Source: an uncultured Gammaproteobacteria bacterium
GTDB taxonomy: Bacteria > Patescibacteriota > Microgenomatia > CAZETR01 > Amesbacteraceae
Direction of reading: 5' to 3'
DNA: 64,000 nt
NCBI GenBank assembly: GCA_964356225.1
Contig: CAYHGA010000002.1
Coordinates: 14,894-78,893 of the forward strand
Shown piece after piece: positions 36,697 to 53,501 of the stretch. Position numbers and translations under genes: made by a program. Numbering within the stretch: position 1 is the stretch's first letter; each line of letters opens with the position of its first letter. The notes beneath the pieces are model-generated. The model was not told the DNA's origin, did not search any database, and saw only the letters and a list, made by a program, of their open reading frames with translations.

Positions 36697-37373
36697 AGTT
36701 TTATGATCCCGGTTCCGGTCCGGTATAGCCGAGGCAGGTTAAAGAACTGGCTAAACCCACTCGGCCGGTCATAATGGCTGACCGGGACTTCTTTAATTTT
36801 ATAGCCAAAATGGGATATTTTCTTGACTAGTTCTACACAAATAGTCCCCGACGATTCAAATAATTTAACCTTGTCAAAGACTCTTTTTTCAATTAATCTG
36901 AAGTCACAATCGGTGTCGCGGATTGTTAAGCCAAACATCATTTTAACCGTGTGATGGTAAATTCCTCCCAAAACGGTTCTATACCACGGGTCATGGCGGA
37001 CTTTTTTGTATCCGTTTACTAAGCCGGTACCAGGTCTGTATACTGCGAAAAGTTTAGACAATTCGCGCACGTCGTATTGAGCGTCACCGTCGGTATAAAA
37101 AATTAGCTTGCCCTGTGATTTTTTAAATCCAGACCGTAAAGCACCTCCATAGCCCGTGTTTTTGTTGTGGTGAACGACTCGTAAATTTGGAACCAGTCTT
37201 TTCATTGTTTCCAATGCATCTTTGGACATTTTGTTGCTACCGTCATCAACTACCAGAACTTCGAAACTCTTTTTCAATTTTTTGGCAGTTGATACAGACA
37301 AAAGAATCATACTCCCAACTGTCCCCCAATCATTCAGATATGGAAAGAAAATTGTTAGATCAATTTTTTTCAT
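36657..37373 (-). CDS. GT2 polyprenyl-phosphate glycosyltransferase (DPM1/GtrB-like)
   Basis: 238 aa. EVLVVDDGSNKMSKD...FYTDGDAQYD...GYKKVRHDP...RDTDCDFRL is the DPM1-like core. Confidence 0.75.
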   Translation of the reverse strand: MKKIDLTIFFPYLNDWGTVGSMILLSVSTAKKLKKSFEVLVVDDGSNKMSKDALETMKRLVPNLRVVHHNKNTGYGGALRSGFKKSQGKLIFYTDGDAQYDVRELSKLFAVYRPGTGLVNGYKKVRHDPWYRTVLGGIYHHTVKMMFGLTIRDTDCDFRLIEKRVFDKVKLFESSGTICVELVKKISHFGYKIKEVPVSHYDRPSGFSQFFNLPRLYRTGTGIIKLWWKLIIKQEYLA

Positions 37374-38168: not shown

Positions 38169-38169
38169 G

Positions 38170-39114: not shown

Positions 39115-39127
39115 AATAATAGCACAA

Positions 39128-39807: not shown

Positions 39808-40827
39808 TCATTTTTTTAAATTTTCCCTCACTAGTGATAAATGATGTAAATAAAAAGATAAAGGAGGGTTTTTCATTACCCGTTTAAAAATCTCGTTGTC
39901 ATCTAGTTTGCGTCTTTTTTGAATAAAACTTCGTTTTTCTAATGTATCATTTATATTTAATATATTCCACCATATTGCCTTAAGTATCGCTACCGACCCA
40001 TCAGTCTGTCCTGATAAGAAAAAATAAGTTGACAACACTACACAAATTACAATATGAATAGGAAACATCCAAAGCAATGTTGTTAAAGATGTGTTCTTGA
40101 TAATTGTTCTTATTCTGTTTTTAAATGAATGGTAATGGATGAAAGCACTTCTCATGGTTGTGCTTGTTGCTCCCATTTTGTGATATATTATTGATTCAGG
40201 TTCGAAGGCAACGTGATACCCCGTGACCCAAGCACGCCAACACAAATCCGATTCCTCAAAATAACACCAATATTTCTCATCAAAAGCACCTAACTCTAAA
40301 ACCGCTTTCTTAACCATCATACATGCTCCTTTGGCCGCAAATGTTTCTCTAAATTTCTTATATTCAGTTTTATCAGTATCCAAATATCCTATATGAAATA
40401 AGAAACCCATATTCGTCAAATAAGAAACTACATTATCAAGTTGTTCTGGATTGTCCATAATAAATATCTTACTTTGAACTATCCCCAAACTGGGGTCTTT
40501 TTCAAGATCAACTACTAGAGGTTCAATAAAACCAGGAGTTACTAAAGTATCATTGTTCAAAATCAACAAATATTTTCCTTTTGCATGTCTGATCCCAGCA
40601 TTGTTGCCACCAACATAACCAGAATTGTTATTGTTTAAAACTTGTCTGACTTTGGGAAACATCTTTTTAATTACCTCTACGGATTCGTCTTGAGAATTGT
40701 TATCGACAACAATTACCTCATAATTAGGGTAAGTTATTTTCTTCAGCGACTTCAAACAATTTAAAGTAAACTGCTTCTGGTTAAAATTTACAATAATTAT
40801 CGAAACTTTTGGATAAATCATTTCCAA
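39808..40827 (-). CDS. Glycosyltransferase family 2 with C-terminal transmembrane helices
   Basis: 339 aa. VSIIIVNFNQKQFTLNCLKSL...YEVIVVDNNSQDES; hydrophobic C-terminus. Confidence 0.75.
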   Translation of the reverse strand: MEMIYPKVSIIIVNFNQKQFTLNCLKSLKKITYPNYEVIVVDNNSQDESVEVIKKMFPKVRQVLNNNNSGYVGGNNAGIRHAKGKYLLILNNDTLVTPGFIEPLVVDLEKDPSLGIVQSKIFIMDNPEQLDNVVSYLTNMGFLFHIGYLDTDKTEYKKFRETFAAKGACMMVKKAVLELGAFDEKYWCYFEESDLCWRAWVTGYHVAFEPESIIYHKMGATSTTMRSAFIHYHSFKNRIRTIIKNTSLTTLLWMFPIHIVICVVLSTYFFLSGQTDGSVAILKAIWWNILNINDTLEKRSFIQKRRKLDDNEIFKRVMKNPPLSFYLHHLSLVRENLKK

Positions 40828-42554
40828 ATACCGATTTTAATGTCTTCCTTAACAGATAAAAACTTTGTGGAAAACATTCCCGAAAGCCCGGCCAGCGTTT
40901 CCAAAGATTTAACCAAGAAAACACCAATTGTTAAAATAGGGTGAGATAGAAGTTTTCTCCAATTTCTAAAAAATGCAGGTCTAAAAATAATATTTCCGTA
41001 CTTTAATGCGAATGCCGGATTTGCCAACATGAGTATACTTGCTGTTCTTCCGTAAAAAAACTTCTTTTTCATGGAGTTGAATATACTAAAATTTCCTTCA
41101 TTATGATAGATTGGTCCACTTATTCTTCCAATCCTAAAGCCCGACCTCCTTACTCTCAAATCTAAGTCTTTATCTTCAGATAAAACCATTTTTTCGTTAT
41201 GACCCCCGACTAATTTGTAAACGGATGTCTTGAAAAAACGGGCAGATTCTATGGTATCATCTCCAACATACATACTTCTCTCGAATATTTTCACTTTTGC
41301 CCAAAAGCCCCTTCCGTATGAAATTTCAGGAATAACGAGAGCGTCATAATTTTTTATCTTTTTTATGCACTGCTCTAGTACTGAAGAAGCAAGTTTCATG
41401 TCAGCGTCCAAATGCAGTAGATACTCACCCCTGGCTAATTCAGACGCGGATTTTCTTCCTTGGGCCATACTAATATTTTTTTGTAGATGTCTTATCTTAA
41501 TTTTTTTGCTAAATCGTTTTAAAAGATATTTTGTGTCGTCCATTGTTTTTACGTCATCATTAATAATGACTTCAAATTTTTTATTTGTTTGTTTCACAAG
41601 CGAAGGAAGCAAATTTTTCAGATGTTCACCTGCATTTAAAGTGGGGACAATGATCGAGATCAAACCTTCTTCTGTCTTACTTTTTTTCATCGGTTCATAA
41701 TTTTTAAGATTTTCCAGTGTCTTGTCTGTAAATATCACTTGAATTGTATTTATAAAACCCCAAAGAGCGGCAAATGTTTCTAGTGTTTTCATCAAAAACA
41801 TTCCTAGCGATAAAGTAGGGTTTGCCAGTATTTTCTTCCAATGCCTAAAATACGCGGTTCTGAAAATTAAGTTGGCTTGATTGAGAGCCTGTTTGGGGTT
41901 TTCTGCTATATAAACGTGTGCTGTTTTACCGTAGAAAAACTTTTTCTGTAAATTTTTTTTAAGACTCAAATTGCCTTCATTGTGATAAATGGGGGCGTTA
42001 ATTCTTCCTATTTTAAAGCCGGCTTTTCGGATTCTTAAGTCTAAATCTTTATCCTCTGATAACACCATTTTTTCATTATGGCCTCCAATTTTGTTGTAGA
42101 CATCCGTCTTGACAAATCGAGCAGATTCTATAGTTTCGTCACCGATATACATGCTTCTTTCAAACGTTTTTACCTTAGCCCAATATCCTTCCCCATATGA
42201 AATTTCAGGAATAATTAAAGCGTCGTACCCTTTGTTAACCTCTTTGATACATGACTCTAACACCTTTGATGATAAAGACATGTCTGCGTCAAGATGTAAA
42301 AGATATTCTCCCGAAGCTTGCTTAGCTCCTCTTTTCCTCCCTTGAGCCATACTAATGTTCTCCCGTAAATATTTTACTTTAAGCTTTTTGCTAAATTTCC
42401 TTAGCACCACTTTTGTATTATCCGTGGTCATTTTGTCATCATTAATAATCACTTCAAAATTTTTGTACGTTTGATTAACTAGAGATGGCAAAAGATCGTT
42501 TAAATAGCCCGCGGCATTTTTTGTAGGAATTATAATTGAGATTAATTTATTCAT
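40818..42554 (-). CDS. Tandem-duplicated two-domain GT2 glycosyltransferase
   Basis: 578 aa. Residues 1-290 and 291-578 are collinear paralogous GT2 modules about 70% identical, for example ISIIIPTKNAAGYLNDLLPSLVNQT versus ISIIVPTLNAGEHLKNLLPSLVKQT. Each half ends in a hydrophobic segment. Confidence 0.75.
   Translation of the reverse strand: MNKLISIIIPTKNAAGYLNDLLPSLVNQTYKNFEVIINDDKMTTDNTKVVLRKFSKKLKVKYLRENISMAQGRKRGAKQASGEYLLHLDADMSLSSKVLESCIKEVNKGYDALIIPEISYGEGYWAKVKTFERSMYIGDETIESARFVKTDVYNKIGGHNEKMVLSEDKDLDLRIRKAGFKIGRINAPIYHNEGNLSLKKNLQKKFFYGKTAHVYIAENPKQALNQANLIFRTAYFRHWKKILANPTLSLGMFLMKTLETFAALWGFINTIQVIFTDKTLENLKNYEPMKKSKTEEGLISIIVPTLNAGEHLKNLLPSLVKQTNKKFEVIINDDVKTMDDTKYLLKRFSKKIKIRHLQKNISMAQGRKSASELARGEYLLHLDADMKLASSVLEQCIKKIKNYDALVIPEISYGRGFWAKVKIFERSMYVGDDTIESARFFKTSVYKLVGGHNEKMVLSEDKDLDLRVRRSGFRIGRISGPIYHNEGNFSIFNSMKKKFFYGRTASILMLANPAFALKYGNIIFRPAFFRNWRKLLSHPILTIGVFLVKSLETLAGLSGMFSTKFLSVKEDIKIGIWK
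40818..42554. repeat. Intragenic tandem direct repeat, two units of about 870 bp each (about 75-80% nucleotide identity)
   Basis: The duplication is seen both in the protein and in DNA. Compare 41170-41350 with 42040-42220. Confidence 0.7.
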
Positions 42555-42870
42555 TTGGGGGTTTAGTCGCTACTTTTAACAGTCTTAAAAAAGAATAAAA
42601 GACAAATGTGTAAATCATGAATCCGGTTTGTATTCCAAACAGGCTTAGTGGCAGAAGAAATAGAATGCTAAAAATGACTAAAGTTTCCGGGACTTTATAC
42701 ATCGTTACTATTGCCAATGAAAATAAGAGCAACTTAAGCTCCAGGCTTTGTTCTAAAATATAAACTTCGGCTCCGGTCTTTATAAGCTCAGAAAAAATAA
42801 TATAGAAAATCAAAAGTAACATAATTTTTGGCTTTTCCAGATGTATATGCGTAATTATATTAATTTTCAT
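42547..42870 (-). CDS. Small polytopic membrane protein, possible GtrA-like lipid-linked sugar translocase
   Basis: 107 aa with 3-4 predicted transmembrane helices. It lies between a GT2 and a giant GT-C gene with 4-8 nt overlaps. Assignment rests on size, topology and context only. Confidence 0.35.
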   Translation of the reverse strand: MKINIITHIHLEKPKIMLLLIFYIIFSELIKTGAEVYILEQSLELKLLLFSLAIVTMYKVPETLVIFSILFLLPLSLFGIQTGFMIYTFVFYSFLRLLKVATKPPNE

Positions 42871-45800
42871 TTTTTTGAATAAAATAATACTAAATATATT
42901 AACCCCAAACTAAACAACGATATTATACTAACTAAAGAAGTTTTATAGAGAATATTTTGGGGCCGATACTCGATAAGAAATGCCAATTCCTTTTCACTAC
43001 CACTGTCTATTAACCAACCGTTGCCATAAGCATTTAACTTAATATCCGGACTTTTAGCCCCCTCTCCCTTAAACACCAAATCTGATAATAAATGCCTGTC
43101 CTGTCTTTCATATTCGACCACTTTTCCGCCCAAGTATTTTTTCTCTCTGCCTTTAAAATAGGAGTTGGCAAGACTTGTTTCTACTTCCCGCACACTCCAC
43201 TGTTGATCAAACCTAGAATTAAAACCTAAAATAAACGAGTCGCTGATACCGGACACTTTGACAAGATAAGCGGTCTGATTAAGCGCTACAAATTGTAAGT
43301 TGTAGTTTTCTGGCGGAATTAATGGATTTTCTTTTGTTACAAAAGCCAAATAATCGGAATAATTTTCAGTGACTTTTATACCTTTTAATTCAAAGGCAGC
43401 AGGAAAGTCATAAGTACCCTCTACACATATTCTTAAGAGGGCCGTTTCTGCATAAATACTTGGTTTATATTTAATATTTAACCTATAGGAAAATGGGGCA
43501 GAAGAATTTTTATCCGTCTGGGGATAAATAGTTTTTTTATTGCCTTTGGGAAATTGTTGATTTGTCTCCAGAAGTTCAATATCCACTAATCTATCGGAAA
43601 GTGTCAAATATTCCAAGTTGAGATTATAGTCTATTTCAGGATCTACCTCACCAAGATTTATTGATTTGCATTCAGAAGATCTAGCGGTTGCGTTGATTTT
43701 GAAACCGGGATAGGATTTCTCTTTGCGAATTAATTCTGGCAAAACTATTGATTGTCCGCCCTGGTCAAGTCTAATTGATTCTCCAAAATACCATTTATTA
43801 CTTGAGGACGACTTTGCAAGGATGTGAGGGGTATTGTTTACGAATCCAGAAAGAGCTTGTCTATCATTGGGCTTGTAATTATAAACAGCCAGTTTGTAGT
43901 TGCCTGCGTATGGTACGTTTATAGTATATTGTTTTGTGCGTACATCGTAATTAGAAATAGGAACCTCGGGAGAAATGTCCAATTCCTGAACGCTCATGGT
44001 TAACATGTCCTCAAATTTGCCTAGTTGTGCCCGAGTTGATTCTGTAAGTCCAGTCTCCCTCCACTTTTGGATACTGACCAAAAAATTCCAGTAGTAAAAA
44101 TATATTCTGCGAGCGTATTCGTCTTTTTGACTTTGTTGGTCAATATCCTTGAAGAACTGATCAACTAGATAGATATTGTTACTCCACTTTCGAAAAAGAT
44201 ACGAAATCGTATTACTATTTTTGGGATTTATTATTATTCTGTCCATGGCTGATATCTCCTTACTCATTGTTCCCATAGTAAAGTCTATTTTTTCTGTTGG
44301 CAGTTCATACTTTTCACTTTTTTGTTGGTCTATAAATTCAATAAGAAAATAAAATGGATTGCTTGGAAAGATCGGAGGAGGGTTTGATCTCACGACGTCT
44401 ATGTATTTTTTTTCTTGACAATTTAAACACTGTGCTTGAATTGTAATGTTTTGAATATCCTTCTGGTATATGATAGGGTCTATATTGCTTCCCTCGCTAA
44501 TGTGCTTGAATATAAACGCGTCTGCCAAAGAAGGCATCCCTGGCGTTTGACTGATTCGAGAAAGTTGTGAAGTTTCTGCCAAAATATATGAAAAATTTTG
44601 TGGGATATAAATGAGAGGTTTTGTCTCGGGGTCGTTAATAGTAAAAAACTTCCACTTACCAACTTCTTTATATAAAGATGAATTAGGCGCGCGGTAGAGT
44701 GCCTTTTTGATTGAACCCGTAAGATAGTCCATGTCCTCGTCAACTTTAAAATCTTCTTGCACGATAGCTCTATCTACTCCCACGTATTTCAGAAGCGATG
44801 ACTGAGAAGATTTTTCAAGTTGTTGATAAATTGCATTAACTAACCCGGGCTCGTCCCCACTCAAGACGGCGTCATTAAGTAGAACCGGTTTTCTGCTCAA
44901 TATGCTGGGTATACTCGATAGGCTGAAGTATTTCCAATCATAAGCAATATATTTATTGCCGTCGTGAAGTTGGGGTAGCATGAGTGTTCTGGCGGAAAAA
45001 CTATTACTATCAAGCTCCTTCTTTGCCTCTAGGATATAGTCTGGAACTTTAACTCTGGTGGAGTATTTATTAGACCAATTGAAAAACACTCCTGTAAAAA
45101 CCGGGTAGTTATATATGCCCAATAAGACGACAAAGGCAGTGAGGCTAAAAAAAGGCGCTCTCTTTACGGTCAGCTGTTTTAAACCGACCGCTACTAGATA
45201 AGAATAAGCAAACCAAAGGGCCATACCAAATTTATAAAAGGGGGTTCGGAAAATCGGAAAACCGGGGATATATTTTAAGGCCAGGTCATATAAGACACCT
45301 GTTGGAGGGTGGGAACCTGCCGTAAAAGGTATTGCTACCAGCAAAATCGCCAGAAATACGACTTTGTAAACTATGTCAGAGTTGGCTTGACCCTTTTTGT
45401 TAAGCAAGCTGAAAAAGGCTATGGCAGGAAAAACGCTGGCAAGCAGTAAAAAGAAATAATTTGTTAGAAGTGTATTGGCATACGGATGGTTGGGATTATC
45501 ATACCAATCGGGTATGCCTTGGAGTTTAATAAGGTTGGTGAAACTGGCATTTTTACTTATCTCGCGACTCCAGGCGATTGCTCCTTCGCTACCACCTGCG
45601 GCACCGATTCTATGTGTATAGTTATATTGATATGAAGCTATGTAGGGATATATCCAGTAGAAGTTGAGTAGGAGGACAAAAATTAAAGATAAAAGAGAGA
45701 AACTTAAAGTTCTTTTGAATTTATCTACAAATGGTTGTGAAGAAATTAGAAAAGTTATTATCGTTGTAGTTAGAGCAACAATGAATAACCCTCCCCATAA

Positions 45801-46391
45801 CGGAATCCCGGCTCCACCGTTTAGGAAAAAAAGTGTTACTCCTACCAGGATGGCATTTTTAAAAACTGACCCTTCTCTTAAATTAACATTGATTATTGCG
45901 AGAGTTATCAAAGGAAGCGCTGAGACAATAGAAAACTTGGACATCTCGGCAATAATCCAGGCCTGGAGAAGATAATGGTTCAGCATGTAAAACAAAGATC
46001 CGGAAATTCTTAAGACGGAATTTTCTTTTTCTGGGTGAAGCGATTTTAAAAGAACGTACATAGTTATCCCGGGAAGGGTAAACCAGAAAATGAAGTCAAA
46101 CTTTTGAGCAAGCTGTAATGAGCCTGTTAGCGCGTAAAAAAACGCCTGTAGGCCGTGTATAAAAATACCGGGGATGGCATCGGTTTGATTAGAACCAAAA
46201 CTGCCAACTCTATCAGTCCAAACAAATAACCTGTCTAACCAAAAGTCTATTGGGGCTAAAGGATAACTCATATCGTGGCCAGCGGCTAAATAACCACCCT
46301 TAAACCACAAAAGCGGTACTAACCCTACTAGGAGAAGGAATATTATTTCCAACCAATACCGATTAAATTTAGGTAGTTTCAACGGTCCCAT
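42867..46391 (-). CDS. Giant polytopic membrane protein, putative GT-C glycosyltransferase (AftD/YfhO-like)
   Basis: 1174 aa. About 13 N-terminal transmembrane helices, first loop GHDMSYPLAP...WTDRVGSFGSNQ, a soluble domain of about 650 aa, and one C-terminal helix. It is a paralog of the 1031-aa neighbour. Confidence 0.5.
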   Translation of the reverse strand: MGPLKLPKFNRYWLEIIFLLLVGLVPLLWFKGGYLAAGHDMSYPLAPIDFWLDRLFVWTDRVGSFGSNQTDAIPGIFIHGLQAFFYALTGSLQLAQKFDFIFWFTLPGITMYVLLKSLHPEKENSVLRISGSLFYMLNHYLLQAWIIAEMSKFSIVSALPLITLAIINVNLREGSVFKNAILVGVTLFFLNGGAGIPLWGGLFIVALTTTIITFLISSQPFVDKFKRTLSFSLLSLIFVLLLNFYWIYPYIASYQYNYTHRIGAAGGSEGAIAWSREISKNASFTNLIKLQGIPDWYDNPNHPYANTLLTNYFFLLLASVFPAIAFFSLLNKKGQANSDIVYKVVFLAILLVAIPFTAGSHPPTGVLYDLALKYIPGFPIFRTPFYKFGMALWFAYSYLVAVGLKQLTVKRAPFFSLTAFVVLLGIYNYPVFTGVFFNWSNKYSTRVKVPDYILEAKKELDSNSFSARTLMLPQLHDGNKYIAYDWKYFSLSSIPSILSRKPVLLNDAVLSGDEPGLVNAIYQQLEKSSQSSLLKYVGVDRAIVQEDFKVDEDMDYLTGSIKKALYRAPNSSLYKEVGKWKFFTINDPETKPLIYIPQNFSYILAETSQLSRISQTPGMPSLADAFIFKHISEGSNIDPIIYQKDIQNITIQAQCLNCQEKKYIDVVRSNPPPIFPSNPFYFLIEFIDQQKSEKYELPTEKIDFTMGTMSKEISAMDRIIINPKNSNTISYLFRKWSNNIYLVDQFFKDIDQQSQKDEYARRIYFYYWNFLVSIQKWRETGLTESTRAQLGKFEDMLTMSVQELDISPEVPISNYDVRTKQYTINVPYAGNYKLAVYNYKPNDRQALSGFVNNTPHILAKSSSSNKWYFGESIRLDQGGQSIVLPELIRKEKSYPGFKINATARSSECKSINLGEVDPEIDYNLNLEYLTLSDRLVDIELLETNQQFPKGNKKTIYPQTDKNSSAPFSYRLNIKYKPSIYAETALLRICVEGTYDFPAAFELKGIKVTENYSDYLAFVTKENPLIPPENYNLQFVALNQTAYLVKVSGISDSFILGFNSRFDQQWSVREVETSLANSYFKGREKKYLGGKVVEYERQDRHLLSDLVFKGEGAKSPDIKLNAYGNGWLIDSGSEKELAFLIEYRPQNILYKTSLVSIISLFSLGLIYLVLFYSKK

Positions 46392-46395
46392 TTTA

Positions 46396-46530
46396 TCATC
46401 TACTTCTTTCTTTTAGTGAGCTGATTAATATGAGGAATAGAAAACTGTAAACTAAAACCCCAGTTATTTCCCCCAGTTTGTCAAAAAGCAGGAGTAAAAT
46501 AGATGTAAGGATTAAAAATTTACTTGCCAT
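46396..46530 (-). CDS. Small two-helix membrane ORF (44 aa) coupled to the 1174-aa gene. It is not in the ORF track.
   Basis: Manual translation gives MASKFLILTSILLLLFDKLGEITGVLVYSFLFLILISSLKERSR. It starts 2 nt after the stop of the 1031-aa gene and ends 5 nt before the ATG of the 1174-aa gene. It has the same M-x-S-K N-terminus and two-helix layout as the ORF at 35226-35381. Confidence 0.4.
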   Translation of the reverse strand: MASKFLILTSILLLLFDKLGEITGVLVYSFLFLILISSLKERSR

Positions 46531-46532
46531 AT

Positions 46533-49500
46533 CTATAAAAGTAAAAAAAATAAAATAATCAATAAAGAGGCTGTACTTACTCCTACTGCTTTGTAAAAAT
46601 CGTTTTGGTTATTATATTCCAAAAGATAAACATGTTCATTATCCTGGTTACTTTTTTCGGAATTTAAAATCCACCCGGGAGAGAAACCATTTAGTTCAAG
46701 AGTCGGATAAAGTTTTTTGCCGTTGTTTGGGAAAACGATGTCTGATAGCACGTGGGTATCTTGTCTTTCGTACTCAACCACTTTGCCGTTTTGAAAACTT
46801 CTCTTGTCTCCTCTAAAGTATTTGTTTACATCTTGCTCTATTTCTCTTAAACTCCAATTCGGATCAAAACGCGAGTTAAAGCCTAGCAAGAAGCGTTCGC
46901 TGCCTTTAGCTTTGAGTAAATATTTGGTTTGATTTAGGGCTACAAATTCAATATTTGGTGAAACAAACTCGGGAGCATTTTTCATCAATTCTGCAAAAAT
47001 TTTAGGTCTTGTTTCTGAATTTTTCGGTTTTTGTAACTCTAATAAAATCCGTACGTTTTCAAGCGGCACATTGGTAATTTGGTACCAATTTGTGCCGATT
47101 CTTTGAGCGCTAAACGTGCGATTGTTAACCGTCAATTGTATTTGATCACTTAATGTTGACTTATTGTAAAGATAAAGATTATAGCTTCCTGTTTCCGGAA
47201 CTTCGAGGCCGTATTTATATAATTTGTCGTCTACCTTCACCACAGGCTGTCCAAACTGTTCATCAATTTCTGTAATAGCTTTTCTTAATTCAATTTCAAG
47301 ATTAATCAGGTCTGATTTTATCGGGCCTAGTTGAGCAGAAGTTGCCCACTGAGATTCATAAGAAATGAAAAATGACAAGTAAAAACGAAGTTTTCTAAGG
47401 ATTTCTTGTTTTATTTTTGAATCCGAAATTTGATCCAGGTTAAGTTTCATTTCTTTCAAGTTTTTGATTAAATCCATTACTGCTACCCCGATCCCCTTTT
47501 CATCTTTCTTGGCTTGAAGCAAACCCAGGTCTGAAATTAAAGTTGTAGAAGCCGATAAATTGATTTCAATTCTCGCGTTTGGACTACCGGAAAAGTATTT
47601 TCTCGCGTCAGTTATAAACTTACCCAGCTTATAAAACGCTGTTCCGGGTATTAACGCCTTTGATGTGGAGAAATATATTTGATAGTTATCGGCTGAAGGA
47701 CAATCAGTACAATTAGCCTGGATAATAAGTTTAGAAAAAATGTCTACTTTTTTGTTATCTTCTGGAAAATCAGACCACAAAAACGCAGCGCTATCTAAGG
47801 CCCCTGGCAGATTTGCGACTATATCTAAATCTTTTTGATCAGATGAAATGAATGTAACTGCCGGTGGAGAGTAAATTCGAGGAAGGATTTCCCCATTATA
47901 ACCGTAGAAATCCCATCTTCCTATACTTTTCTTAAAAGTAAAATCTTTAGATTTTTTAAATGACTCTTTTATCCCACTTAAGACGTTGCCTTCATAATCT
48001 GGCGAAATAAAGTCATTTTGCACTACGGCTCTGTCAGCCCCTGTAAATTTAACCAAATTAGAATTTCCAAATTTAATATACTCTGATAAAGTGCTGATTA
48101 TCAAATTTGTCTCATTGGGCCTTGCTAACACTCCGTTTACTGTTAAGGATTTTCTTCCCATCATATGTGACAAATCATTTAAGCTAAAATAACCCCAATC
48201 GTAATCAATATACTCAGTTCTTATATCAGCGTTGGGTAAAGATAAAGTTCTGGTAGAGAATTTACTACTATCAAGTTCCTTCTTTGCTTCAAAGATATAA
48301 TCAGGCACTTTTACCATCGTGGATTTCCCTTTAGAATAGTTAAAAAAACTTCCTGTTAAAAATGGATAATTGTATATAAAGAGCGAAACTATAAATGCGC
48401 CAAGTAAAACCTTTGGTTTAATTTTTAACCAGTCTATTACATCTTTGACTCCCACTGCGATTAAATAGGCATAAGCAAACCAAATAATCATCCCAAATTT
48501 AAAAAACCCGGAACGAAACATGCCAAAACCGGGGGCGTTAACCAACAAGTAATCGTAAAATATTCCCAAAGGAGAATGGCTTCCTGCAGAGAGCGGAACT
48601 GCAATAAGTAATAAACTTAAGAAGTAAATTCTCGTTTTAAATAATAAGCCCGATAGTTTTTTAAGATTTAAAAGACCAAACAGAGCTAAAGTCGGAAAAA
48701 GAAGGTTTAGAAATAATAATATGGGATTTTTAAAAAATTCATTTGCAAAAGGATGATTTGGGCTGGCATACCAATCAGGTATTCCCCTAAGTTTAAACAG
48801 GTTTATCCAACTGGTATTTACGCTTATCCCCTGGCTCCAGGAAAGAGTCCCCGCTATTCCCCACGCTTGTTCGAATCTTTGCCCAAAGGTTTGGTTATAA
48901 GACTTAAAATAAGGGTAAAACCAATAACTACTAAGCAGTGTCCAGAATAAAGCAGATAAAAAAGAAAAGATGAGTAATCTTTTTATCTTAGGCCAAAAAC
49001 TTTCGTTTGACAAAAAGAAGAATATTATTGCTGTCGATGCAACTACTACAAACAAGCTAATCAAAAGTGGAATACCCTCTCCACCATTTAAGAAAAATAA
49101 GGTCAGGGCAAAGAGTAGAGAATTTTTTACGGGAGATTCTTTTTTATGTAATGTCTTAATTATTAAAAGTACAACTATAGGTAGAGCTGCGACGATTGAA
49201 AACTTAGTTCTTTCCGCGATAGTCCAGGCCTGAAGAAGATAGTGGTTCATCATGTAAAATAGGCTTCCGAAAATTCTAACCGGATAATCATTTTTCTTAG
49301 GATGTAGATAACAAAGAAGTGCGTACATCATAATTCCCGGAAGAACAAACCAAAAAATGTAAGTTATCTTTTGAACTGCGGATAGCGAGAACCCTATGAA
49401 GGACAGCAAAGCTTCAAGTCCATGTATAAACACGCCCGGCAGAACTTGAACTGAATTAGAGCCAAATGGGCCCAGTCTGTCGGTCCATGTATATAGTCTA

Positions 49501-49628
49501 TCTAAAAAATGAGCTACTGGGGCCAGGGAGAAACCCATATCGTGACCCAATCCTATGTATCCAGGCTTATACCAAAGAAGTGGTGCTAAACCAACGATTA
49601 ACAATAAAAGGATCTCAATTTTTTTCAT
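46533..49628 (-). CDS. Giant polytopic membrane protein, putative GT-C glycosyltransferase (paralog of 42867-46391)
   Basis: 1031 aa. N-terminus LIVGLAPLLWYKPGYIGLGHDMGFSLAPVAHFLDRLYTWTDRLGPFGSNS aligns with the 1174-aa protein. Same topology, ending in a C-terminal helix. Confidence 0.5.
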   Translation of the reverse strand: MKKIEILLLLIVGLAPLLWYKPGYIGLGHDMGFSLAPVAHFLDRLYTWTDRLGPFGSNSVQVLPGVFIHGLEALLSFIGFSLSAVQKITYIFWFVLPGIMMYALLCYLHPKKNDYPVRIFGSLFYMMNHYLLQAWTIAERTKFSIVAALPIVVLLIIKTLHKKESPVKNSLLFALTLFFLNGGEGIPLLISLFVVVASTAIIFFFLSNESFWPKIKRLLIFSFLSALFWTLLSSYWFYPYFKSYNQTFGQRFEQAWGIAGTLSWSQGISVNTSWINLFKLRGIPDWYASPNHPFANEFFKNPILLFLNLLFPTLALFGLLNLKKLSGLLFKTRIYFLSLLLIAVPLSAGSHSPLGIFYDYLLVNAPGFGMFRSGFFKFGMIIWFAYAYLIAVGVKDVIDWLKIKPKVLLGAFIVSLFIYNYPFLTGSFFNYSKGKSTMVKVPDYIFEAKKELDSSKFSTRTLSLPNADIRTEYIDYDWGYFSLNDLSHMMGRKSLTVNGVLARPNETNLIISTLSEYIKFGNSNLVKFTGADRAVVQNDFISPDYEGNVLSGIKESFKKSKDFTFKKSIGRWDFYGYNGEILPRIYSPPAVTFISSDQKDLDIVANLPGALDSAAFLWSDFPEDNKKVDIFSKLIIQANCTDCPSADNYQIYFSTSKALIPGTAFYKLGKFITDARKYFSGSPNARIEINLSASTTLISDLGLLQAKKDEKGIGVAVMDLIKNLKEMKLNLDQISDSKIKQEILRKLRFYLSFFISYESQWATSAQLGPIKSDLINLEIELRKAITEIDEQFGQPVVKVDDKLYKYGLEVPETGSYNLYLYNKSTLSDQIQLTVNNRTFSAQRIGTNWYQITNVPLENVRILLELQKPKNSETRPKIFAELMKNAPEFVSPNIEFVALNQTKYLLKAKGSERFLLGFNSRFDPNWSLREIEQDVNKYFRGDKRSFQNGKVVEYERQDTHVLSDIVFPNNGKKLYPTLELNGFSPGWILNSEKSNQDNEHVYLLEYNNQNDFYKAVGVSTASLLIILFFLLL

Positions 49629-51246
49629 TTGTGATATCCTTTTTTAATTTCTCTCTTATGTTTCCAGAAACGTTTTTAACAGAGTGTTTTTGATAGTCCC
49701 AATAATACGCATGCACATTGTCAGAAGATACGTCTGGATTCTCTTTGAGCGCACTTAATAGTTTGCTATAAGTCATGAAATATCCGTATTTGCCAGTTTT
49801 ATATTGTTTAAGCCCTTCATGGGAGAGGTCCCAAAAATCTGGATCGGTTAAAGCTTCATTTGGAACCTTGCCGGTGTTGTATAACCAAACAGCTAATGTT
49901 TGTCCAAATCCTGACTGAAATTCCCAAAACCCATTATTGTCCGTAAAAAAATAAAAGACATTGTTTCTTTCCAAGTTTGGTTTAATTTGTGATACAGTCT
50001 CAAGCATGGCTTTGCGGTATGCTCCTGTTTTGATATCTAATGCCAAGTCTCGTTTGATATTTGTTACATAATAACCCAAGAGGGGTAACAATATTATTAT
50101 GGATAATGGCAGTTTAATTTTAGGCAAAATTGACATATAAGTGTCGACTGTGAGAGCCAAAATCAGCCCTGCCCAAAGAGCGGGAAAAATATAAAAGCGG
50201 TGCTCTAATGTTGCCGGTTGGTTGGGGAACAAGACAAAAGGCGCACAGGAAAAACCAAAAGTTACTAGCGAGAACAATATTGTTTTTTTTGACCTTTTGG
50301 CTAAAGCTACGGCCCCAAGTACTATTGATAAGACTGTAATTGAACCAATTACTGAAACGGCGTCTCCAATAATGCTTTCTATTACATAACCGTTAGTCAA
50401 ATCTCCATAATGGATCTTGTTAGCTTTGTAAAATAAACTATAAAGTTGTTTTTGGGGGATGAAGACTTGGAAAAGGGTACGGGAAGGAATTAAAAGTGTG
50501 TTGTAGACAATATTTCCGCTCTGGGTAATTTTAGCCGCTTCAGGAACACTAGATGAAACCTCAATATTTTTGAAAAGTAGTTTTGGAAGTGCAATTGTTA
50601 AAAGAATTGGAATTATTAATATACTCCAACTCCATCTAATGCCTTTGGAAAAGACTAGTAATGGAAAAGTAAGTATGTAATATATTCCAGATTCTTTAAA
50701 AAGCAGTGAGATCAACATAAAGAGTGAGCAAAGTAATAAATTTTTTATCCTGCGATTTTTTCGGAAGGTTAATAGATTCCAAAAAGACATCATGAAGAAT
50801 GTAAACGAAAACTGAGACGGCACAATCGAGCTAATCCACGTGATGGCTTGTTGTGAGTATCCGTTTGTTAACCAAAATAGCGTAGTTACGATGGAAATTA
50901 CCCTGGATTCAGTAAGCTTCTCGATGCAAAAGTAAATTAGCAGAGAATTGGCCACTGCCATAAAAAATGCCAAATAACCGTACCATGAAAAATTTAGGCC
51001 GAAGGTGTTGAAAACCACATAATTGGCCAAAGATGTAAGGGGAAGGAATCTGAACAAGCCTCCGGCTGGATGAAATATGTCTATAACGGCTCGGGTTATG
51101 CCACCATTATCCCTTCTACTCATGGCCCCACCCAATCCCAACCACTCATCCTGCTGAAAAAAGATGTTATTTATTCCCCAAAAGGCTAGTAGAGCAACTA
51201 AAATAATTATTGACAAACTAAGAATGTGGGGCCGTATCTTACGCAT
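49615..51246 (-). CDS. Polytopic membrane protein, putative GT-C glycosyltransferase
   Basis: 543 aa, about 13 transmembrane helices. First loop FFQQDEWLGLGGAMS has a D-E motif. A soluble C-terminal domain of about 130 aa follows. Confidence 0.45.
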   Translation of the reverse strand: MRKIRPHILSLSIIILVALLAFWGINNIFFQQDEWLGLGGAMSRRDNGGITRAVIDIFHPAGGLFRFLPLTSLANYVVFNTFGLNFSWYGYLAFFMAVANSLLIYFCIEKLTESRVISIVTTLFWLTNGYSQQAITWISSIVPSQFSFTFFMMSFWNLLTFRKNRRIKNLLLCSLFMLISLLFKESGIYYILTFPLLVFSKGIRWSWSILIIPILLTIALPKLLFKNIEVSSSVPEAAKITQSGNIVYNTLLIPSRTLFQVFIPQKQLYSLFYKANKIHYGDLTNGYVIESIIGDAVSVIGSITVLSIVLGAVALAKRSKKTILFSLVTFGFSCAPFVLFPNQPATLEHRFYIFPALWAGLILALTVDTYMSILPKIKLPLSIIILLPLLGYYVTNIKRDLALDIKTGAYRKAMLETVSQIKPNLERNNVFYFFTDNNGFWEFQSGFGQTLAVWLYNTGKVPNEALTDPDFWDLSHEGLKQYKTGKYGYFMTYSKLLSALKENPDVSSDNVHAYYWDYQKHSVKNVSGNIREKLKKDITNEKN

Positions 51247-51266: not shown

Positions 51267-51959
51267 TTATCTGGTTTTTGAACACTTTAAAAAAGCCGTT
51301 GATAGTCCGGGGGACTGATATTCTATGTCTAGCTGGTGGTTAAAAAAATTCTGAAATAGCGGGCGGCGGCGAAGTACCCATTTGGAAAGATACATGTTCA
51401 AAGCGTATAGAACCTCCCACAACTTTCCCTTAATAAAAAGCTTGTTGACAGTTAGACCTGCCTGTTGGCTAAACTGCCTTAATTTTTCTAATGAGTAATG
51501 TCTGTGTTTAATTAACCACCAGGCGGGATCGAATAACTTTGACGGCCAAGAGGCAAAAGGTGTAGACAAGTAAAAATGGCCACCAGGTTTCAGAACACGG
51601 TAAACTTCACGAAACATTCTTTTTTCAGTCCGGGGCGGGATATGCTCTAAAACCTCCCAACAAACGACTGTGTTAAAACTATTGTTGGCAAACGGCAGTT
51701 TAGTGGCGTCAGCTACCCGAAATTTTACCCGTGAGTTTTTAATGTTAGATTTAATGGTTTCTAGGTCACCTTCGGTAACCTCACTAGCAACAATCGACCC
51801 CGCTCCCCTAGTTAGAAAATTTAATTCGCACCACCCGTAACCGCTGCCAATATCAAGAATAGTTTTATTTTTTACGTCAGAATTGTCGACAAAATCCATG
51901 CTAAACTTAAGCCGGCCATGGATATCGGTTGAGGGCCTTTCTGAAAGAATATTTTTCAT
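51267..51959 (-). CDS. Class I SAM-dependent methyltransferase
   Basis: 230 aa. ILDIGSGYGWCELNFL (motif I) ... VVCWEVLEHI ... KPGGHFYLSTP. Confidence 0.7.
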   Translation of the reverse strand: MKNILSERPSTDIHGRLKFSMDFVDNSDVKNKTILDIGSGYGWCELNFLTRGAGSIVASEVTEGDLETIKSNIKNSRVKFRVADATKLPFANNSFNTVVCWEVLEHIPPRTEKRMFREVYRVLKPGGHFYLSTPFASWPSKLFDPAWWLIKHRHYSLEKLRQFSQQAGLTVNKLFIKGKLWEVLYALNMYLSKWVLRRRPLFQNFFNHQLDIEYQSPGLSTAFLKCSKTR

Positions 51960-53501
51960 TTAAATTTTACGGGCATATATTTCAAGAGAATCAAAAAAAT
52001 TTATGGTTAAAAACGGTTTTCCCTTAAGCGCGGATAACAATTTATATATTGGTGGAAATATATTTTTTAGACGGGTTATCCAGTAATTTAAGCTAAAAGT
52101 CCAACTGTATTTCCCGAGCTTTTCAATTTTATACCCTAAAGACAAAAGAAGTAAAGATAATGTTTCTTCTGTAAAATAATAAATATGATCTGGACGAATG
52201 TGCCACCAATTTTCACCCAATAATTTTGAAATTAGGCTCCCTATATCGGGCGTCACTAGACATAACACCCCGTCTTTATTCAGAATTTTGTGAATGTCTG
52301 CTAAAAGTTTTCTGGGGGAAGATACGTGTTCAATCACGTCCAGGCAAGTTACGGCATCAAATGGCTTCCCCTTGAGCTTAACAGTTTCAAGTGTACCTTG
52401 AATAATATTTAGTCCGAATTTTTCCCTCCCAATTCTAGAAGCCCATTTTGATGGCTCAATTCCGATTGACTCCCACTTATGTCTGTGCGCAATTTCTAAA
52501 AGTGTTCCTGTAGCGCATCCAATATCCAAAAGCTTTCCAGAAAATTTATGTAGATTTTCTATCTTCTTAAATATTCTTTCATGCGTCATTAACCTTGCCG
52601 TTCTTTCATTTTCATAATCAGGGTCTACAAAGCCTGAATATCTTTCTACTAGTTTTTTATCTTTCTCTCTGGGAGAACAGTAAAGTAAATTACAATCCAA
52701 GCATTTAACTATTTGAGAATGGTCACCATATGAATTGTCGGTTATGTAGTACTTATCTTTGGCAATTCCCCTTTTTTGGTAAACAACTCTTGCTTTATCG
52801 TTACTACAAATATCGCAAATATGATTTGATAAACTGTTTATTTGAAATGTTTTTTTCATGAATCTATGATATTTTGTTAAAAGAAAAACCCAGGGAATTA
52901 CCAATGATTTTTTGAATTGTGCTTGAGAAAGATTTTCTAAAAACTCACTTCGACTCGAAAAATTATCCATGCAGATGTAATTTCTACCAAGCTCGTATTT
53001 AGTGTGAGCGTCACTGCCGATACACACAATTTTCCCTATTTTCTTTGCAAACTTTTCTGCTTTTAAATTGTCCCATGGCTTAATTGTTCTACCATTAAAG
53101 ACTTCAATTATGTCTATGTCATCAATATTCAAGGTTAAAGAATTTTCGTTAATGGCGGTTTTCCTTGTGGTGGTGTCAAACGGATGCGGTAAATACACAA
53201 GCCCTCCTTGGTGTTTAATTTCTTTAATTGTTTGCCTCATTGAAAGACCTGAAGGAATGAATTTTTTTAAAAATAAGCCTATTATCTCTCCTTCTTTACT
53301 CAAGATCTCCTCACCCACAATTACTTTAAATGGGGCAATTCTTTGAAGCCGTAGGGCGCCTTCAATTTGATTGTGGTCGGTAACAGCTAAAACATCAATC
53401 TTTTTCTGGATGCATTTATCTATTAAATCTTTGTAAGAGATCGAACAGTCGTACGAATACTTTGTATGAACATGTAATTCAACTTTAATTTTGGCAGACA
53501 T
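51960..53501 (-). CDS. Fusion protein: N-terminal PHP-family phosphoesterase, Cys4 zinc-ribbon, C-terminal class I SAM methyltransferase
   Basis: 513 aa. ELHVHTKYSYDCS...AVTDHN...GSDAHT are the His/Asp metal motifs of a PHP domain. The middle has CDICSND...CLDCNLLYC. The C-terminus has LLDIGCATGTLLEIA...AVTCLDVIEHV...KDGVLCLVTP. Confidence 0.65.
   Translation of the reverse strand: MSAKIKVELHVHTKYSYDCSISYKDLIDKCIQKKIDVLAVTDHNQIEGALRLQRIAPFKVIVGEEILSKEGEIIGLFLKKFIPSGLSMRQTIKEIKHQGGLVYLPHPFDTTTRKTAINENSLTLNIDDIDIIEVFNGRTIKPWDNLKAEKFAKKIGKIVCIGSDAHTKYELGRNYICMDNFSSRSEFLENLSQAQFKKSLVIPWVFLLTKYHRFMKKTFQINSLSNHICDICSNDKARVVYQKRGIAKDKYYITDNSYGDHSQIVKCLDCNLLYCSPREKDKKLVERYSGFVDPDYENERTARLMTHERIFKKIENLHKFSGKLLDIGCATGTLLEIAHRHKWESIGIEPSKWASRIGREKFGLNIIQGTLETVKLKGKPFDAVTCLDVIEHVSSPRKLLADIHKILNKDGVLCLVTPDIGSLISKLLGENWWHIRPDHIYYFTEETLSLLLLSLGYKIEKLGKYSWTFSLNYWITRLKNIFPPIYKLLSALKGKPFLTINFFDSLEIYARKI

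What the first reader, a model, noticed from the sequence alone, without database searches (positions are those of the whole stretch)
42867..49628. Tandem paralogous giant membrane proteins (1174 and 1031 aa) with GT-C-like architecture, plus a third 844-aa relative
Two adjacent genes encode proteins with collinear, clearly homologous N-termini (GHDM[SG][YF]xLAP...W[TV]DR[VL]G[SP]FGSN). Each has about 13 transmembrane helices, an extracytoplasmic domain of 450-650 aa and a single C-terminal anchor helix. The 844-aa protein at 32710-35229 shares the topology and a related first-loop motif. This architecture is that of AftD-type arabinofuranosyltransferases or YfhO-type GT-C enzymes, which use polyprenyl-phosphate sugars. 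The size, the duplication and the lineage context are unusual.
Basis: partly seen in the sequence, partly recalled or inferred. Interest (0 to 1): 0.75.

Follow-up and report, generated by a model that had tools for sequence, protein, structure and literature searches.

The report
AftD-like giant glycosyltransferases in a CPR bacterium
Two adjacent giant membrane proteins and a third, smaller relative are divergent cousins of the mycobacterial cell-wall enzyme AftD, sitting in a roughly 50-kb sugar-polymer gene island of a Patescibacteria (CPR) genome; they belong to a very large, uncharacterised but already catalogued family, so the find is real but only moderately novel.

Summary
On the minus strand, ORFs 42867-46391 (A, 1174 aa) and 46533-49628 (B, 1031 aa) are clear paralogs: 41% identity over 828 aa, E=0. 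ORF 32710-35244 (C, 844 aa) is a remote homolog (hhalign 98.8%, E 5e-17).

The AftD-type GT-C interpretation is supported.
- An N-terminal profile hits only AftD in the PDB (E 8e-4).
- The first 660 aa of A match Pfam GT-C_AftD below threshold (19 bits against a cut-off of 26). 28 of 48 relatives match it.
- YfhO is not supported.

Differences from AftD:
- one C-terminal helix instead of five;
- an added helical bundle;
- AftD's essential D474 is not conserved;
- a conserved small membrane protein is translationally coupled downstream.

The family is confined to Patescibacteria in the genomes sampled and is large: about 11,000 clusters at 50% identity. Size, tandem duplication and lineage are therefore typical for this family.

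An operon-linked DPPRS-like UbiA enzyme and a PHP phosphatase suggest a polyprenyl-phosphate pentofuranose donor. This is unproven.

The parts
42867..46391 (-). Protein A (1174 aa): AftD-like GT-C glycosyltransferase, the variable paralog
45093..46391 (-). A residues 1-433: polytopic GT-C membrane domain. The loop-1 Asp40 codon is at 46272-46274.
   Evidence: DSSP helices of the model. G38, D40, N138, W145, R382 and K387 are invariant. Loop 1 aligns with AftD residues 45-136.
44436..45092 (-). A residues 434-652: extracytoplasmic alpha/beta domain, equivalent to the soluble GT-C domain of AftD
   Evidence: Profile positions 440-574 align with AftD 439-569. Secondary structure.
44418..44429 (-). 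Invariant CxxC (Cys655, Cys658) in the ectodomain
   Evidence: Invariant in 45/45 sequences. Function unknown.
43980..44351 (-). A residues 681-804: five-helix bundle, which AftD is not described as having
42966..43937 (-). A residues 819-1142: beta-sandwich domains, candidate carbohydrate-binding modules. This is the most divergent part of the protein.
42879..42965 (-). A residues 1143-1171: single C-terminal transmembrane anchor
   Evidence: Helix 1143-1171 in the model. Hydropathy peak at 1147-1165.
46533..49628 (-). Protein B (1031 aa): AftD-like GT-C glycosyltransferase, the conserved paralog
   Evidence: 41% identical to A. Orthologs of ~1030-1055 aa are 64-77% identical and sit next to an A-type gene on the same contigs.
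32710..35244 (-). Protein C (844 aa from the TTG start): distant AftD-like GT-C
42547..42870 (-). Small membrane protein (107 aa, ~3 hydrophobic helices) whose start overlaps the stop codon of A; a conserved partner of the giant enzyme
   Evidence: 4-nt overlap. An HMM of this protein finds a counterpart in 72 of 85 related loci, usually starting between -36 and +2 nt of the giant's stop. No Pfam or PDB match.
49615..51246 (-). 543-aa polytopic membrane protein directly upstream of B; probably another GT-C of the PMT_2 type
   Evidence: Some relatives carry PF13231 PMT_2 and others a C-terminal discoidin domain. Homologs are present in 39 of 85 loci, mostly just upstream of the giant. Not homologous to the A family.
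51267..51959 (-). SAM-dependent methyltransferase (230 aa)
   Evidence: Pfam Methyltransf_25 and Methyltransf_11.
51960..53501 (-). PHP phosphoesterase fused to a SAM methyltransferase (513 aa); candidate 5-phosphate phosphatase for the lipid-linked ribose
   Evidence: Pfam PHP, PHP_C and Methyltransf_23. The HxH, DH and DxH metal motifs are readable in the translation. Conserved next to UbiA in L001, L008 and L010. The assigned role is an inference.
53505..54383 (-). UbiA-family enzyme most similar to decaprenyl-phosphate phosphoribosyltransferase (DPPRS)
   Evidence: The only PDB hits are DPPRS 8j8j and 8j8k (best, 8j8j: E 6.9e-12). Best NCBIfam model is NF008977, 97.6 bits, below its cut-off of 234. 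The motif reads NQIADVEFD where DPPRS has NDVRDVEAD.
54373..55668 (-). NTP_transf_5 nucleotidyltransferase fused to a P-loop kinase (431 aa)
   Evidence: These are two separate genes in L001 and L006. The kinase gene precedes the 543-aa homolog and the giant even in loci without UbiA.
55641..57173 (-). PMT_2-type GT-C (510 aa)
   Evidence: PF13231, 30.7 bits. UbiA was found only in loci that also hold a homolog of this protein: L001, L002, L008 and L010.
40818..42554 (-). Two-domain GT2 (578 aa), similar to chondroitin and heparosan synthases
   Evidence: 77-81% identical in L001 and L010.
39808..40827 (-). GT2 (339 aa), soluble Leloir type
35371..36696 (-). 441-aa polytopic membrane protein directly upstream of C
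   Evidence: No family hit. 53% identical counterpart upstream of the C ortholog in L001 and L010. Not homologous to the A family.
36657..37373 (-). GT2 (238 aa) of the polyprenyl-phosphate sugar synthase type (similar to ArnC, PgfS and AglJ); candidate donor maker for the 441-aa protein and C
   Evidence: Best NCBIfam hits are ArnC (5.8e-18), PgfS, AglJ and Dol-P hexose transferase, all below their cut-offs.

Best explanation
A, B and, more distantly, C are extracytoplasmic GT-C glycosyltransferases homologous to mycobacterial AftD. Each has an N-terminal polytopic membrane domain that would bind a polyprenyl-phosphate-linked sugar at the outer face of the cytoplasmic membrane. The invariant Asp in the first external loop (A Asp40, C Asp31) would act as the catalytic or metal-binding acid. 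The large ectodomain (alpha/beta domain, helical bundle, beta-sandwich modules) would hold the growing glycan acceptor. A single C-terminal helix ties the ectodomain back to the membrane.

The enzymes work late in the assembly of a complex, probably O-methylated cell-surface polysaccharide. That polymer is encoded by a glycan island of about 50 kb, containing GT2, GT4, Wzx, Wzy, an initiating transferase and many methyltransferases. B is the conserved step. A has a fast-diverging ectodomain and is the strain-variable step.

A 107-aa membrane protein translationally coupled to A is an obligate partner of unknown role.

In this sub-lineage the donor is plausibly a polyprenyl-phosphate pentofuranose. 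A DPPRS-like UbiA enzyme would transfer ribose-5-phosphate from PRPP to the lipid and the PHP domain would remove the 5-phosphate. No DprE1/E2-type epimerase is present, so ribofuranose is more likely than arabinofuranose.

Shown: paralogy, GT-C fold, AftD as nearest relative, the conserved residues, the operon structure and its synteny. Inferred: enzyme activity, donor identity, acceptor, and the role of the small protein.
For: Paralogy.

Sequence: the N-terminal profile hits only AftD in the PDB at E 8e-4, in two collinear stretches covering loop 1 and the soluble GT-C domain. PF11847 is the only Pfam family matched, by A's N-terminal part (E 3.3e-4) and by 28 of 48 relatives.

Conserved residues: D40, N138, W145, R382 and K387 are invariant. 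The same motifs recur in C: D31, N129 and PGF..FRD..KF.

Context: tight co-directional operon with overlaps or gaps of 20 nt or less, except 141 nt between B and A. The order PMT_2, kinase, UbiA, PHP-MTase, 55x-aa protein, B, A, small protein, GT2, GT2 is conserved in L001, L002, L008 and L010.

Donor: the only PDB relatives of the UbiA protein are the two DPPRS entries (best E 6.9e-12). The PHP metal motifs are intact. A precedent exists for DPPRS-like enzyme plus phosphatase plus GT-C systems outside Actinobacteria (PMC11127046).

Ectodomain divergence.
Against: - There is no biochemical evidence for this family.
- A and B do not reach the Pfam gathering score for PF11847 (19.2 against 26 bits). 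As full-length queries they give no hit at all.
- AftD's essential D474/E475 align with Leu491/Ser492 of A, so the active site is not identical.
- UbiA lies within 10 kb of the giant in only 4 of 85 related loci. In L006 and L012 the kinase, the 55x-aa protein and the giant are adjacent with no UbiA. For the family as a whole the donor is therefore not tied to PRPP.
- Where UbiA was found, a PMT_2-type GT-C homolog was always present too (L001, L002, L008, L010). That protein is the more conventional, ArnT/GT136-like user of such a donor.
- The first Asp of the DPPRS NDxxD motif is Gln here.
- Two ArnC-like GT2 enzymes in the island could supply hexose-type lipid donors instead.
Confidence: 0.7

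Rival explanations
1. A and B are AftD-like GT-C enzymes but use a polyprenyl-phosphate hexose or amino sugar made by GT2 enzymes of the ArnC/GtrB type. On this view the UbiA/PHP module serves the neighbouring PMT_2-type GT-C or the 543-aa protein instead.
For: UbiA is present in only 4 of 85 loci, and each of those also holds a PMT_2 homolog. L006 and L012 have kinase, 55x-aa protein and giant with no UbiA. ArnC/PgfS-like GT2 genes lie at 36657-37373 and 61987-62787. In distant loci the giants sit next to GT2 genes. The characterised pentofuranose GT-C, GT136, resembles ArnT rather than AftD.
Against: In this window and its closest relatives UbiA, PHP, B and A lie in one tightly packed conserved operon. 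AftD, the nearest characterised relative, uses a donor derived from the DPPRS pathway. The GT2 genes immediately adjacent to A are soluble enzymes of the chondroitin-synthase type, not lipid-sugar synthases.
Confidence: 0.3
2. A, B and C are protein glycosyltransferases, acting like oligosaccharyltransferases or protein O-mannosyltransferases. They would decorate S-layer, pilin or other surface proteins rather than build a polysaccharide.
Confidence: 0.08
3. The giants are mainly scaffolds or assembly factors, as recently proposed for part of AftD's role through its TmaT interaction, or are catalytically dead paralogs.
For: AftD has a non-catalytic partner-binding role in Corynebacterium (bioRxiv 10.64898/2026.07.31.741767). 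AftD's D474 equivalent is not conserved.
Against: The loop-1 Asp and about 20 other membrane-domain residues are invariant across sequences that are otherwise only 25-40% identical. This pattern is typical of a maintained active site. The membrane domain is the best conserved part of the protein.
Confidence: 0.05

Closest known systems
AftD, arabinofuranosyltransferase D of Mycobacteriales (Rv0236c; M. abscessus structures 6W98, 6WBX, 6WBY; Pfam PF11847 GT-C_AftD)
   Different: About 13% identity, and below Pfam's threshold. One C-terminal helix instead of TM12 plus the TM13-16 bundle that binds acyl carrier protein. An extra five-helix bundle and an invariant CxxC. AftD's essential D474/E475 are not conserved. 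No DprE1/E2 in the window. The host is a CPR bacterium with no arabinogalactan, lipoarabinomannan or mycomembrane. A conserved small membrane protein is encoded separately downstream.
[quoted passage not shown]
   Same: Protein C matches the MmpA model at E 9e-9 over the conserved PGF..FR..KF region, residues 284-415. MmpA is described as AftD-like in its membrane domain.
   Different: The score of 34 bits is far below the cut-off of 210. C has a ~440-aa ectodomain and a C-terminal anchor. The biological context is unrelated.
Three-component pentofuranose glycosylation systems (Citrobacter youngae ORF15 PPPRS-phosphatase, ORF14 MATE flippase, ORF12 GT136 GT-C; Kelly et al. 2024, PMC11127046)
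   Same: The logic is the same: a UbiA-type polyprenyl-phosphate phosphoribosyltransferase, a phosphatase and extracytoplasmic GT-C enzymes in one glycan locus. The absence of an epimerase would predict ribofuranose.
   Different: The phosphatase candidate is a PHP domain fused to a methyltransferase, not a HAD domain fused to the synthase. No MATE flippase was identified. A and B are AftD-like giants rather than ArnT-like GT136 enzymes. The link between UbiA and A/B rests on gene order only.
Other mycobacterial arabinosyltransferases of GT-C fold (AftA 8IF8, AftB 9DLH, EmbA/B/C)
   Same: GT-C fold and lipid-linked pentofuranose donors. Multiple paralogs act in sequence on one polymer, which is a useful analogy for the A, B and C set.

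Membership tests
GT-C glycosyltransferase fold superfamily | N-terminal polytopic membrane domain with the GT-C helix arrangement and an extracytoplasmic first loop | tested here: met
GT-C glycosyltransferase fold superfamily | Conserved acidic residue in the first extracytoplasmic loop just after helix 1 | tested here: met
   A Asp40 is invariant in 45/45 and 48/48 aligned relatives. C Asp31 is conserved in at least 90% of 18 sequences and aligns with Asp40.
GT-C glycosyltransferase fold superfamily | Use of a polyprenyl-phosphate or polyprenyl-diphosphate-linked sugar donor | not testable with these tools
AftD family (Pfam PF11847 GT-C_AftD) | Match to PF11847 at or above the gathering score (26 bits) | tested here: inconclusive
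   Full-length A and B give no hit. A's first 660 aa score 19.2 bits, E 3.3e-4, over HMM positions 24-540 of 661. 28 of 48 relatives match at E<=0.01. Several exceed 26 bits: P0081 at 45.3, P0056 at 34.5 and P0017 at 32.8.
AftD family (Pfam PF11847 GT-C_AftD) | AftD is the closest solved structure, including the soluble GT-C domain | tested here: met
AftD family (Pfam PF11847 GT-C_AftD) | Residues shown to be essential in AftD: K39, D41, E251, K361, D474 (bioRxiv 10.1101/2019.12.22.885152) | tested here: inconclusive
   Asp40 lies within 1-2 positions of D41 in the profile alignment. D474/E475 align with Leu491/Ser492 and so are not conserved. K39, E251 and K361 could not be mapped because no residue-level superposition was available. 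Invariant R382/K387 are candidates for K361.
AftD family (Pfam PF11847 GT-C_AftD) | C-terminal membrane module: TM12 plus a TM13-16 bundle that binds acyl carrier protein | tested here: not met
   A, B and C each end in a single helix followed by a few residues. The downstream 107-aa membrane protein might replace the bundle, but its profile finds nothing in the PDB and no fused form was found in 85 loci.
AftD family (Pfam PF11847 GT-C_AftD) | Arabinofuranose transfer from decaprenyl-phosphate arabinose (pathway DPPRS, phosphatase, DprE1/DprE2) | tested here: inconclusive
   A DPPRS-like enzyme and a candidate phosphatase are in the operon. No FAD oxidase or DprE2-like reductase was found in any ORF of the window that I scanned. 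Activity itself cannot be tested here.
YfhO family (Pfam PF09586) | Match to the YfhO profile | tested here: not met
   No hit for A, B or C at E<=1 or for 48 relatives at E<=0.01.
Three-component pentofuranose systems (PPPRS + flippase + GT136 GT-C) | UbiA-type polyprenyl-phosphate phosphoribosyltransferase in the locus | tested here: inconclusive
   The only PDB relatives are the DPPRS entries 8j8j and 8j8k (best E 6.9e-12). The best NCBIfam model is DPPRS, but at 97.6 bits against a cut-off of 234. The first Asp of the NDxxD motif is Gln.
Three-component pentofuranose systems (PPPRS + flippase + GT136 GT-C) | Dedicated MATE-type flippase and an ArnT-like GT136 enzyme | tested here: not met
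   No MATE family hit in the island. Wzx-type proteins are present at 30716-31984 and 62762-63988. A and B are AftD-like. The PMT_2 protein at 55641-57173 is the nearest analogue of GT136, but I did not compare it with GT136 directly.

The most novel reading that the evidence does not exclude
Microgenomates-type CPR bacteria assemble a pentofuranose-containing (ribofuranan-like or arabinan-like), heavily methylated surface polymer. They would do so with a DPPRS-like lipid-ribose pathway feeding tandem AftD-like polymerising or branching enzymes. The C-terminal membrane module of actinobacterial AftD would be replaced by a separately encoded, translationally coupled small membrane subunit. If so, AftD-type wall chemistry would not be an actinobacterial speciality. 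It would instead be an ancient and widespread bacterial toolkit, with the hypervariable A paralog setting strain-specific surface identity in episymbiotic CPR cells.
Probability: 0.2. Interest if true: 0.65.

Novelty: new variant of a known kind. Interest (0 to 1): 0.4.

Why it matters
The cell surfaces of CPR/Patescibacteria are almost unknown biochemically, yet they mediate attachment to hosts and exposure to phages. This window shows that a substantial fraction of a small genome is devoted to one glycan island. At least five membrane proteins in it show GT-C-type signals (A, B, C, the 510-aa PMT_2 protein and the 543-aa protein), and three of them are AftD-like giants.

The analysis links a family of about 11,000 clusters of 'hypothetical' giant proteins to a structurally characterised enzyme. 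It identifies the residues to mutate (Asp40, Asn138, Arg382, Lys387). It identifies a conserved small partner protein. It proposes a testable donor pathway (PRPP to polyprenyl-phosphate ribose).

The result does not overturn anything. It extends a known enzyme class to a new lineage and a new domain architecture.

Tried and rejected
- Full-length Pfam and NCBIfam scans of A and B gave nothing useful. The AftD domain match appeared only when the N-terminal 660 aa were scanned alone.
- phmmer of A, C and the relative P0081 against PDB sequences gave no meaningful hits.
- The full-length family profile against the PDB was swamped by coiled-coil and designed helical-bundle hits to the 681-804 bundle, with AftD only at E~3. 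Trimming to the GT-C domain fixed this.
- The C-family profile against the PDB gave no relevant hit.
- hhalign of the 543-aa and 441-aa membrane proteins against the A family gave probability ~2%, so they are not the same family.
- The small downstream protein has no Pfam family (including GtrA) and no PDB hit. No giant-small fusion exists in 85 loci. Both the 'split AftD C-terminal bundle' idea and the 'GtrA-like flippase' idea therefore remain unsupported guesses.
- The GT2 genes next to A were tested as possible GtrB/DPM1-type donor synthases. They resemble soluble chondroitin or heparosan synthases instead.
- The GalE-like epimerase present in L001 has no tblastn match in the window.
- Promoter and terminator scans of the operon were not above shuffled expectation.
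- No tRNA or Rfam feature is present in the window.
- Literature searches for Patescibacteria plus arabinofuranosyltransferase, and for DUF3367, found no study of this family.


Full report
**1. Observation**

The three ORFs exist as described, all on the minus strand:
- A: 42867-46391, 1174 aa.
- B: 46533-49628, 1031 aa.
- C: 32710-35244, 844 aa from a TTG start.

The quoted loop motifs are readable in the translations. A and B are unambiguous paralogs, with 41% identity over 828 aa (E=0) plus a collinear 33% match over the C-terminal 300 aa. C is a remote relative. A profile of 45 A-family sequences aligns with it over 500 columns at hhalign probability 98.8%, E 4.7e-17, and GND in C lies under GHD in A. 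The topology is broadly as stated: a helical membrane domain, a 585-700-aa ectodomain and one C-terminal anchor helix.

**2. What the proteins are**

Standard full-length scans were silent. The homology search returned 187 relatives. The named ones are from Patescibacteria, mainly Woesebacteria, Roizmanbacteria, Daviesbacteria and Levybacteria. Many carry precomputed PF11847 hits, and one is named 'alpha-(1->3)-arabinofuranosyltransferase family protein'.

Direct scans confirm the link. Relatives 27-50% identical to A exceed the Pfam gathering score for GT-C_AftD across HMM positions ~22-545 of 661. The N-terminal 660 aa of A match the same model at E 3.3e-4 (19.2 bits, below the cut-off of 26). 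28 of 48 family members match it, and apart from one stray VMA21 hit in a single member (E 0.0048) it is the only Pfam family matched.

An AlphaFold2 model of A built on the 45-sequence alignment is confident, with pLDDT 87.4 and pTM 0.84.
- Foldseek against the PDB puts AftD first (6w98_A, E 1.1e-14), followed by DPY19, ArnT, AftA and ALG12.
- A profile restricted to the GT-C region hits only AftD in the entire PDB sequence set (E 8e-4). The hit has two collinear stretches, one covering loop 1 and one covering the soluble GT-C domain.

**3. Anatomy and differences from AftD**

From the model and conservation, A consists of:
- residues 1-433: the membrane GT-C domain, with invariant G38, D40, N138, W145, W274, N286, G292, W296, P376, F378, R382 and K387;
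- residues 434-652: an alpha/beta soluble domain homologous to AftD 439-569;
- an invariant CxxC at Cys655 and Cys658;
- residues 681-804: a five-helix bundle (DUF5667-like in relatives);
- residues 819-1142: beta-sandwich domains with weak CBM matches;
- residues 1143-1171: one transmembrane helix.

According to the cryo-EM study, AftD has 11 helices, a soluble GT-C domain, three CBMs and a beta-sandwich, then TM12 and a TM13-16 bundle that binds acyl carrier protein. Its essential residues are K39, D41, E251, K361 and D474. In the window proteins the loop-1 Asp is conserved within a residue or two of D41. D474/E475 align with Leu/Ser. The C-terminal bundle is absent and the helical bundle is extra.

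The shared invariant motifs of the A family and the C family (the loop-1 Asp, N138/N129, W-x-x-P, P-x-W and PGF..FR..KF) define a common core that presumably forms the active site.

**4. Context**

The window opens with a division and cell-wall cluster (FtsA, MurG, FtsW, MraY, a PBP, MraW), then HisRS and RecO. From about 13 kb to the window end it is one glycan island. The island holds a DUF4012 protein, an initiating Bac_transf enzyme, a nucleotidyltransferase, several GT4 and GT2 enzymes, a Wzy_C protein, two Wzx-type flippases, at least seven SAM methyltransferases and several polytopic proteins of GT-C type.

A and B sit in a tight co-directional operon, in this order:
1. GT2 (57163-58215)
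2. PMT_2 GT-C
3. NTP_transf_5/P-loop kinase
4. DPPRS-like UbiA
5. PHP-methyltransferase
6. methyltransferase
7. 543-aa membrane protein
8. B
9. A
10. 107-aa membrane protein
11. two-domain GT2
12. GT2

The order from PMT_2 onwards is conserved in L001/L002 and L010, which extend through both downstream GT2 genes, and in L008, which ends at the contig edge 51 aa into the two-domain GT2.

C has its own small module: an ArnC/PgfS-like GT2, a 441-aa membrane protein, C, then a methyltransferase. This module is also conserved in L001 and L010.

**5. Family-wide patterns**

A scan of one genome per species returned 79 loci. Every informative title is Patescibacteria. The many 'uncultured Gammaproteobacteria' titles belong to third-party bulk assemblies and look like placeholder labels, but I could not verify this.

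The exhaustive profile search counts 10,958 representative clusters at E<=1e-3 and 2,600 at E<=1e-30, most matching end to end. This is a large, full-length-conserved family.

B-type orthologs (~1030-1055 aa) are 64-77% identical. A-type orthologs range from 37 to 83%. Both types co-occur on the same contigs. Compared with L001, neighbouring genes are 71-81% identical, but A is 47% and the 543-aa protein 46%. A's divergence is concentrated in the ectodomain: 20-37% there, against 55-85% in the membrane domain. This fits a conserved catalytic module attached to a changing acceptor-binding module.

An HMM of the small downstream protein finds a counterpart in 72 of 85 loci. The counterpart almost always starts at or just before the giant's stop codon. 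It has no Pfam or PDB relative.

**6. Mechanism and donor**

The best-supported reading is extracytoplasmic transfer of a sugar from a polyprenyl-phosphate donor to a surface glycan, with Asp40 in the catalytic site and the ectodomain binding the acceptor. This follows from homology to AftD and from the general properties of GT-C enzymes. It is inference, not demonstration.

For the donor, the operon offers a UbiA protein whose only PDB relatives are the two decaprenyl-phosphate phosphoribosyltransferase (DPPRS) entries (best E 6.9e-12) and whose best NCBIfam model is the same enzyme, though below its cut-off. The adjacent PHP phosphoesterase has intact metal motifs.

Kelly et al. 2024 showed that such synthase, phosphatase and GT-C systems add pentofuranoses in Gram-negative bacteria, and that an epimerase decides which pentose is added. 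No DprE1/E2-like gene was found in the window, so ribofuranose would be the default.

I rate this donor assignment at about one in three for A and B, for four reasons:
- UbiA accompanies the giants in only 4 of 85 loci.
- In each of those loci a PMT_2 GT-C homolog is present as well.
- Close relatives have kinase, 55x-aa protein and giant with no UbiA.
- ArnC-like GT2 enzymes in the island could supply other lipid-linked sugars.

**7. Novelty and verdict**

It is not as unusual as suggested. The family is huge in CPR genomes, tandem copies are the rule, and some members already carry automatic DUF3367 or AftD-family names.

Four points are new relative to characterised AftD:
- the domain architecture, with a single C-terminal helix, an added helical bundle and a CxxC;
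- the loss of the D474 position;
- the conserved, translationally coupled small membrane partner;
- the lineage, and in this sub-lineage the physical linkage to a DPPRS-like pathway.

I found no paper on this family in the searchable library. I class it as a new variant of a known kind, with moderate interest.

Noticed in passing
window 42547-42870 (-); counterparts in L001-L085: A 100-130-aa protein with 3-5 hydrophobic helices is translationally coupled to the stop codon of the giant GT-C in 72 of 85 related loci. It shares a loose PY(L/I/F)N(I/L) motif and has no Pfam or PDB relative. It is never fused to the giant. It could be a donor flippase or a stand-in for AftD's C-terminal helix bundle.
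   Followed up: partly
window 42867-46391 vs 46533-49628, compared with L001, L008 and L010: Within an otherwise 70-80% conserved operon, A and the 543-aa membrane protein are only ~45-60% identical to their orthologs, while B stays at ~70-75%. A's divergence is in its ectodomain. This suggests strain-specific acceptor recognition or replacement by recombination.
   Followed up: partly
window 1-28000 vs 32000-60000: GC content falls from about 0.44-0.49 in the cell-division and housekeeping part to 0.33-0.39 across the part of the glycan island that holds A, B and C. This could indicate a horizontally exchanged or fast-evolving region.
   Followed up: no
window 54373-55668 (-): The NTP_transf_5 nucleotidyltransferase and a thymidylate-kinase-like P-loop kinase form one 431-aa ORF here. 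They are two overlapping genes in L001 and L006. The pair recurs upstream of the giants even where UbiA is absent. Its function in the pathway is unknown.
   Followed up: partly
L001/L002 17227-18234 (-), absent from the window: Close relatives carry a GalE-like SDR epimerase within the methyltransferase block. The window lacks it (no tblastn hit). This parallels the epimerase presence or absence that switches ribofuranose to xylofuranose in Citrobacter O1/O2.
   Followed up: partly
window 44418-44429 (-), A Cys655/Cys658: A CxxC motif is invariant in all 45 aligned family members. It lies in a low-confidence loop between the soluble GT-C domain and the helical bundle. It could form a disulfide or a metal site.
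   Followed up: no
window 31992-32723, 37389-39805, 51267-53501: There is an unusual density of SAM-dependent methyltransferase genes, at least seven in the island, including three in a row on the plus strand at 37389-39805. This suggests a heavily O-methylated glycan.
   Followed up: no
window 60225-61994 (-): A 589-aa protein with an N-terminal signal or anchor helix has no Pfam or NCBIfam match. Homologs appear in only 2 of 85 loci. It may be a secreted glycan-processing enzyme.
   Followed up: no
window 20827-22167, 26478-27797, 35371-36696, 49615-51246, 55641-57173: Five further polytopic membrane proteins lie in the same island. Three show GT-C-type signals: PMT_2 matches for 55641-57173 and (sub-threshold) 20827-22167, and PMT_2 hits in relatives of the 543-aa protein. 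One (26478-27797) has only a sub-threshold match to the flippase-associated protein Agl23, and the 441-aa protein has no family match.
   Followed up: partly
record titles of L008, L010, L013, L016 and many others: Dozens of third-party MAG records titled 'uncultured Gammaproteobacteria bacterium' encode this otherwise Patescibacteria-specific family with typical CPR gene context. The titles are probably placeholder or erroneous taxonomy.
   Followed up: no
window 1169-10309 (-): A compact dcw-type cluster (MraW, PBP transpeptidase, diacylglycerol kinase, MraY, FtsW, MurG, FtsA) sits next to the glycan island. The organism therefore makes peptidoglycan.
   Followed up: no
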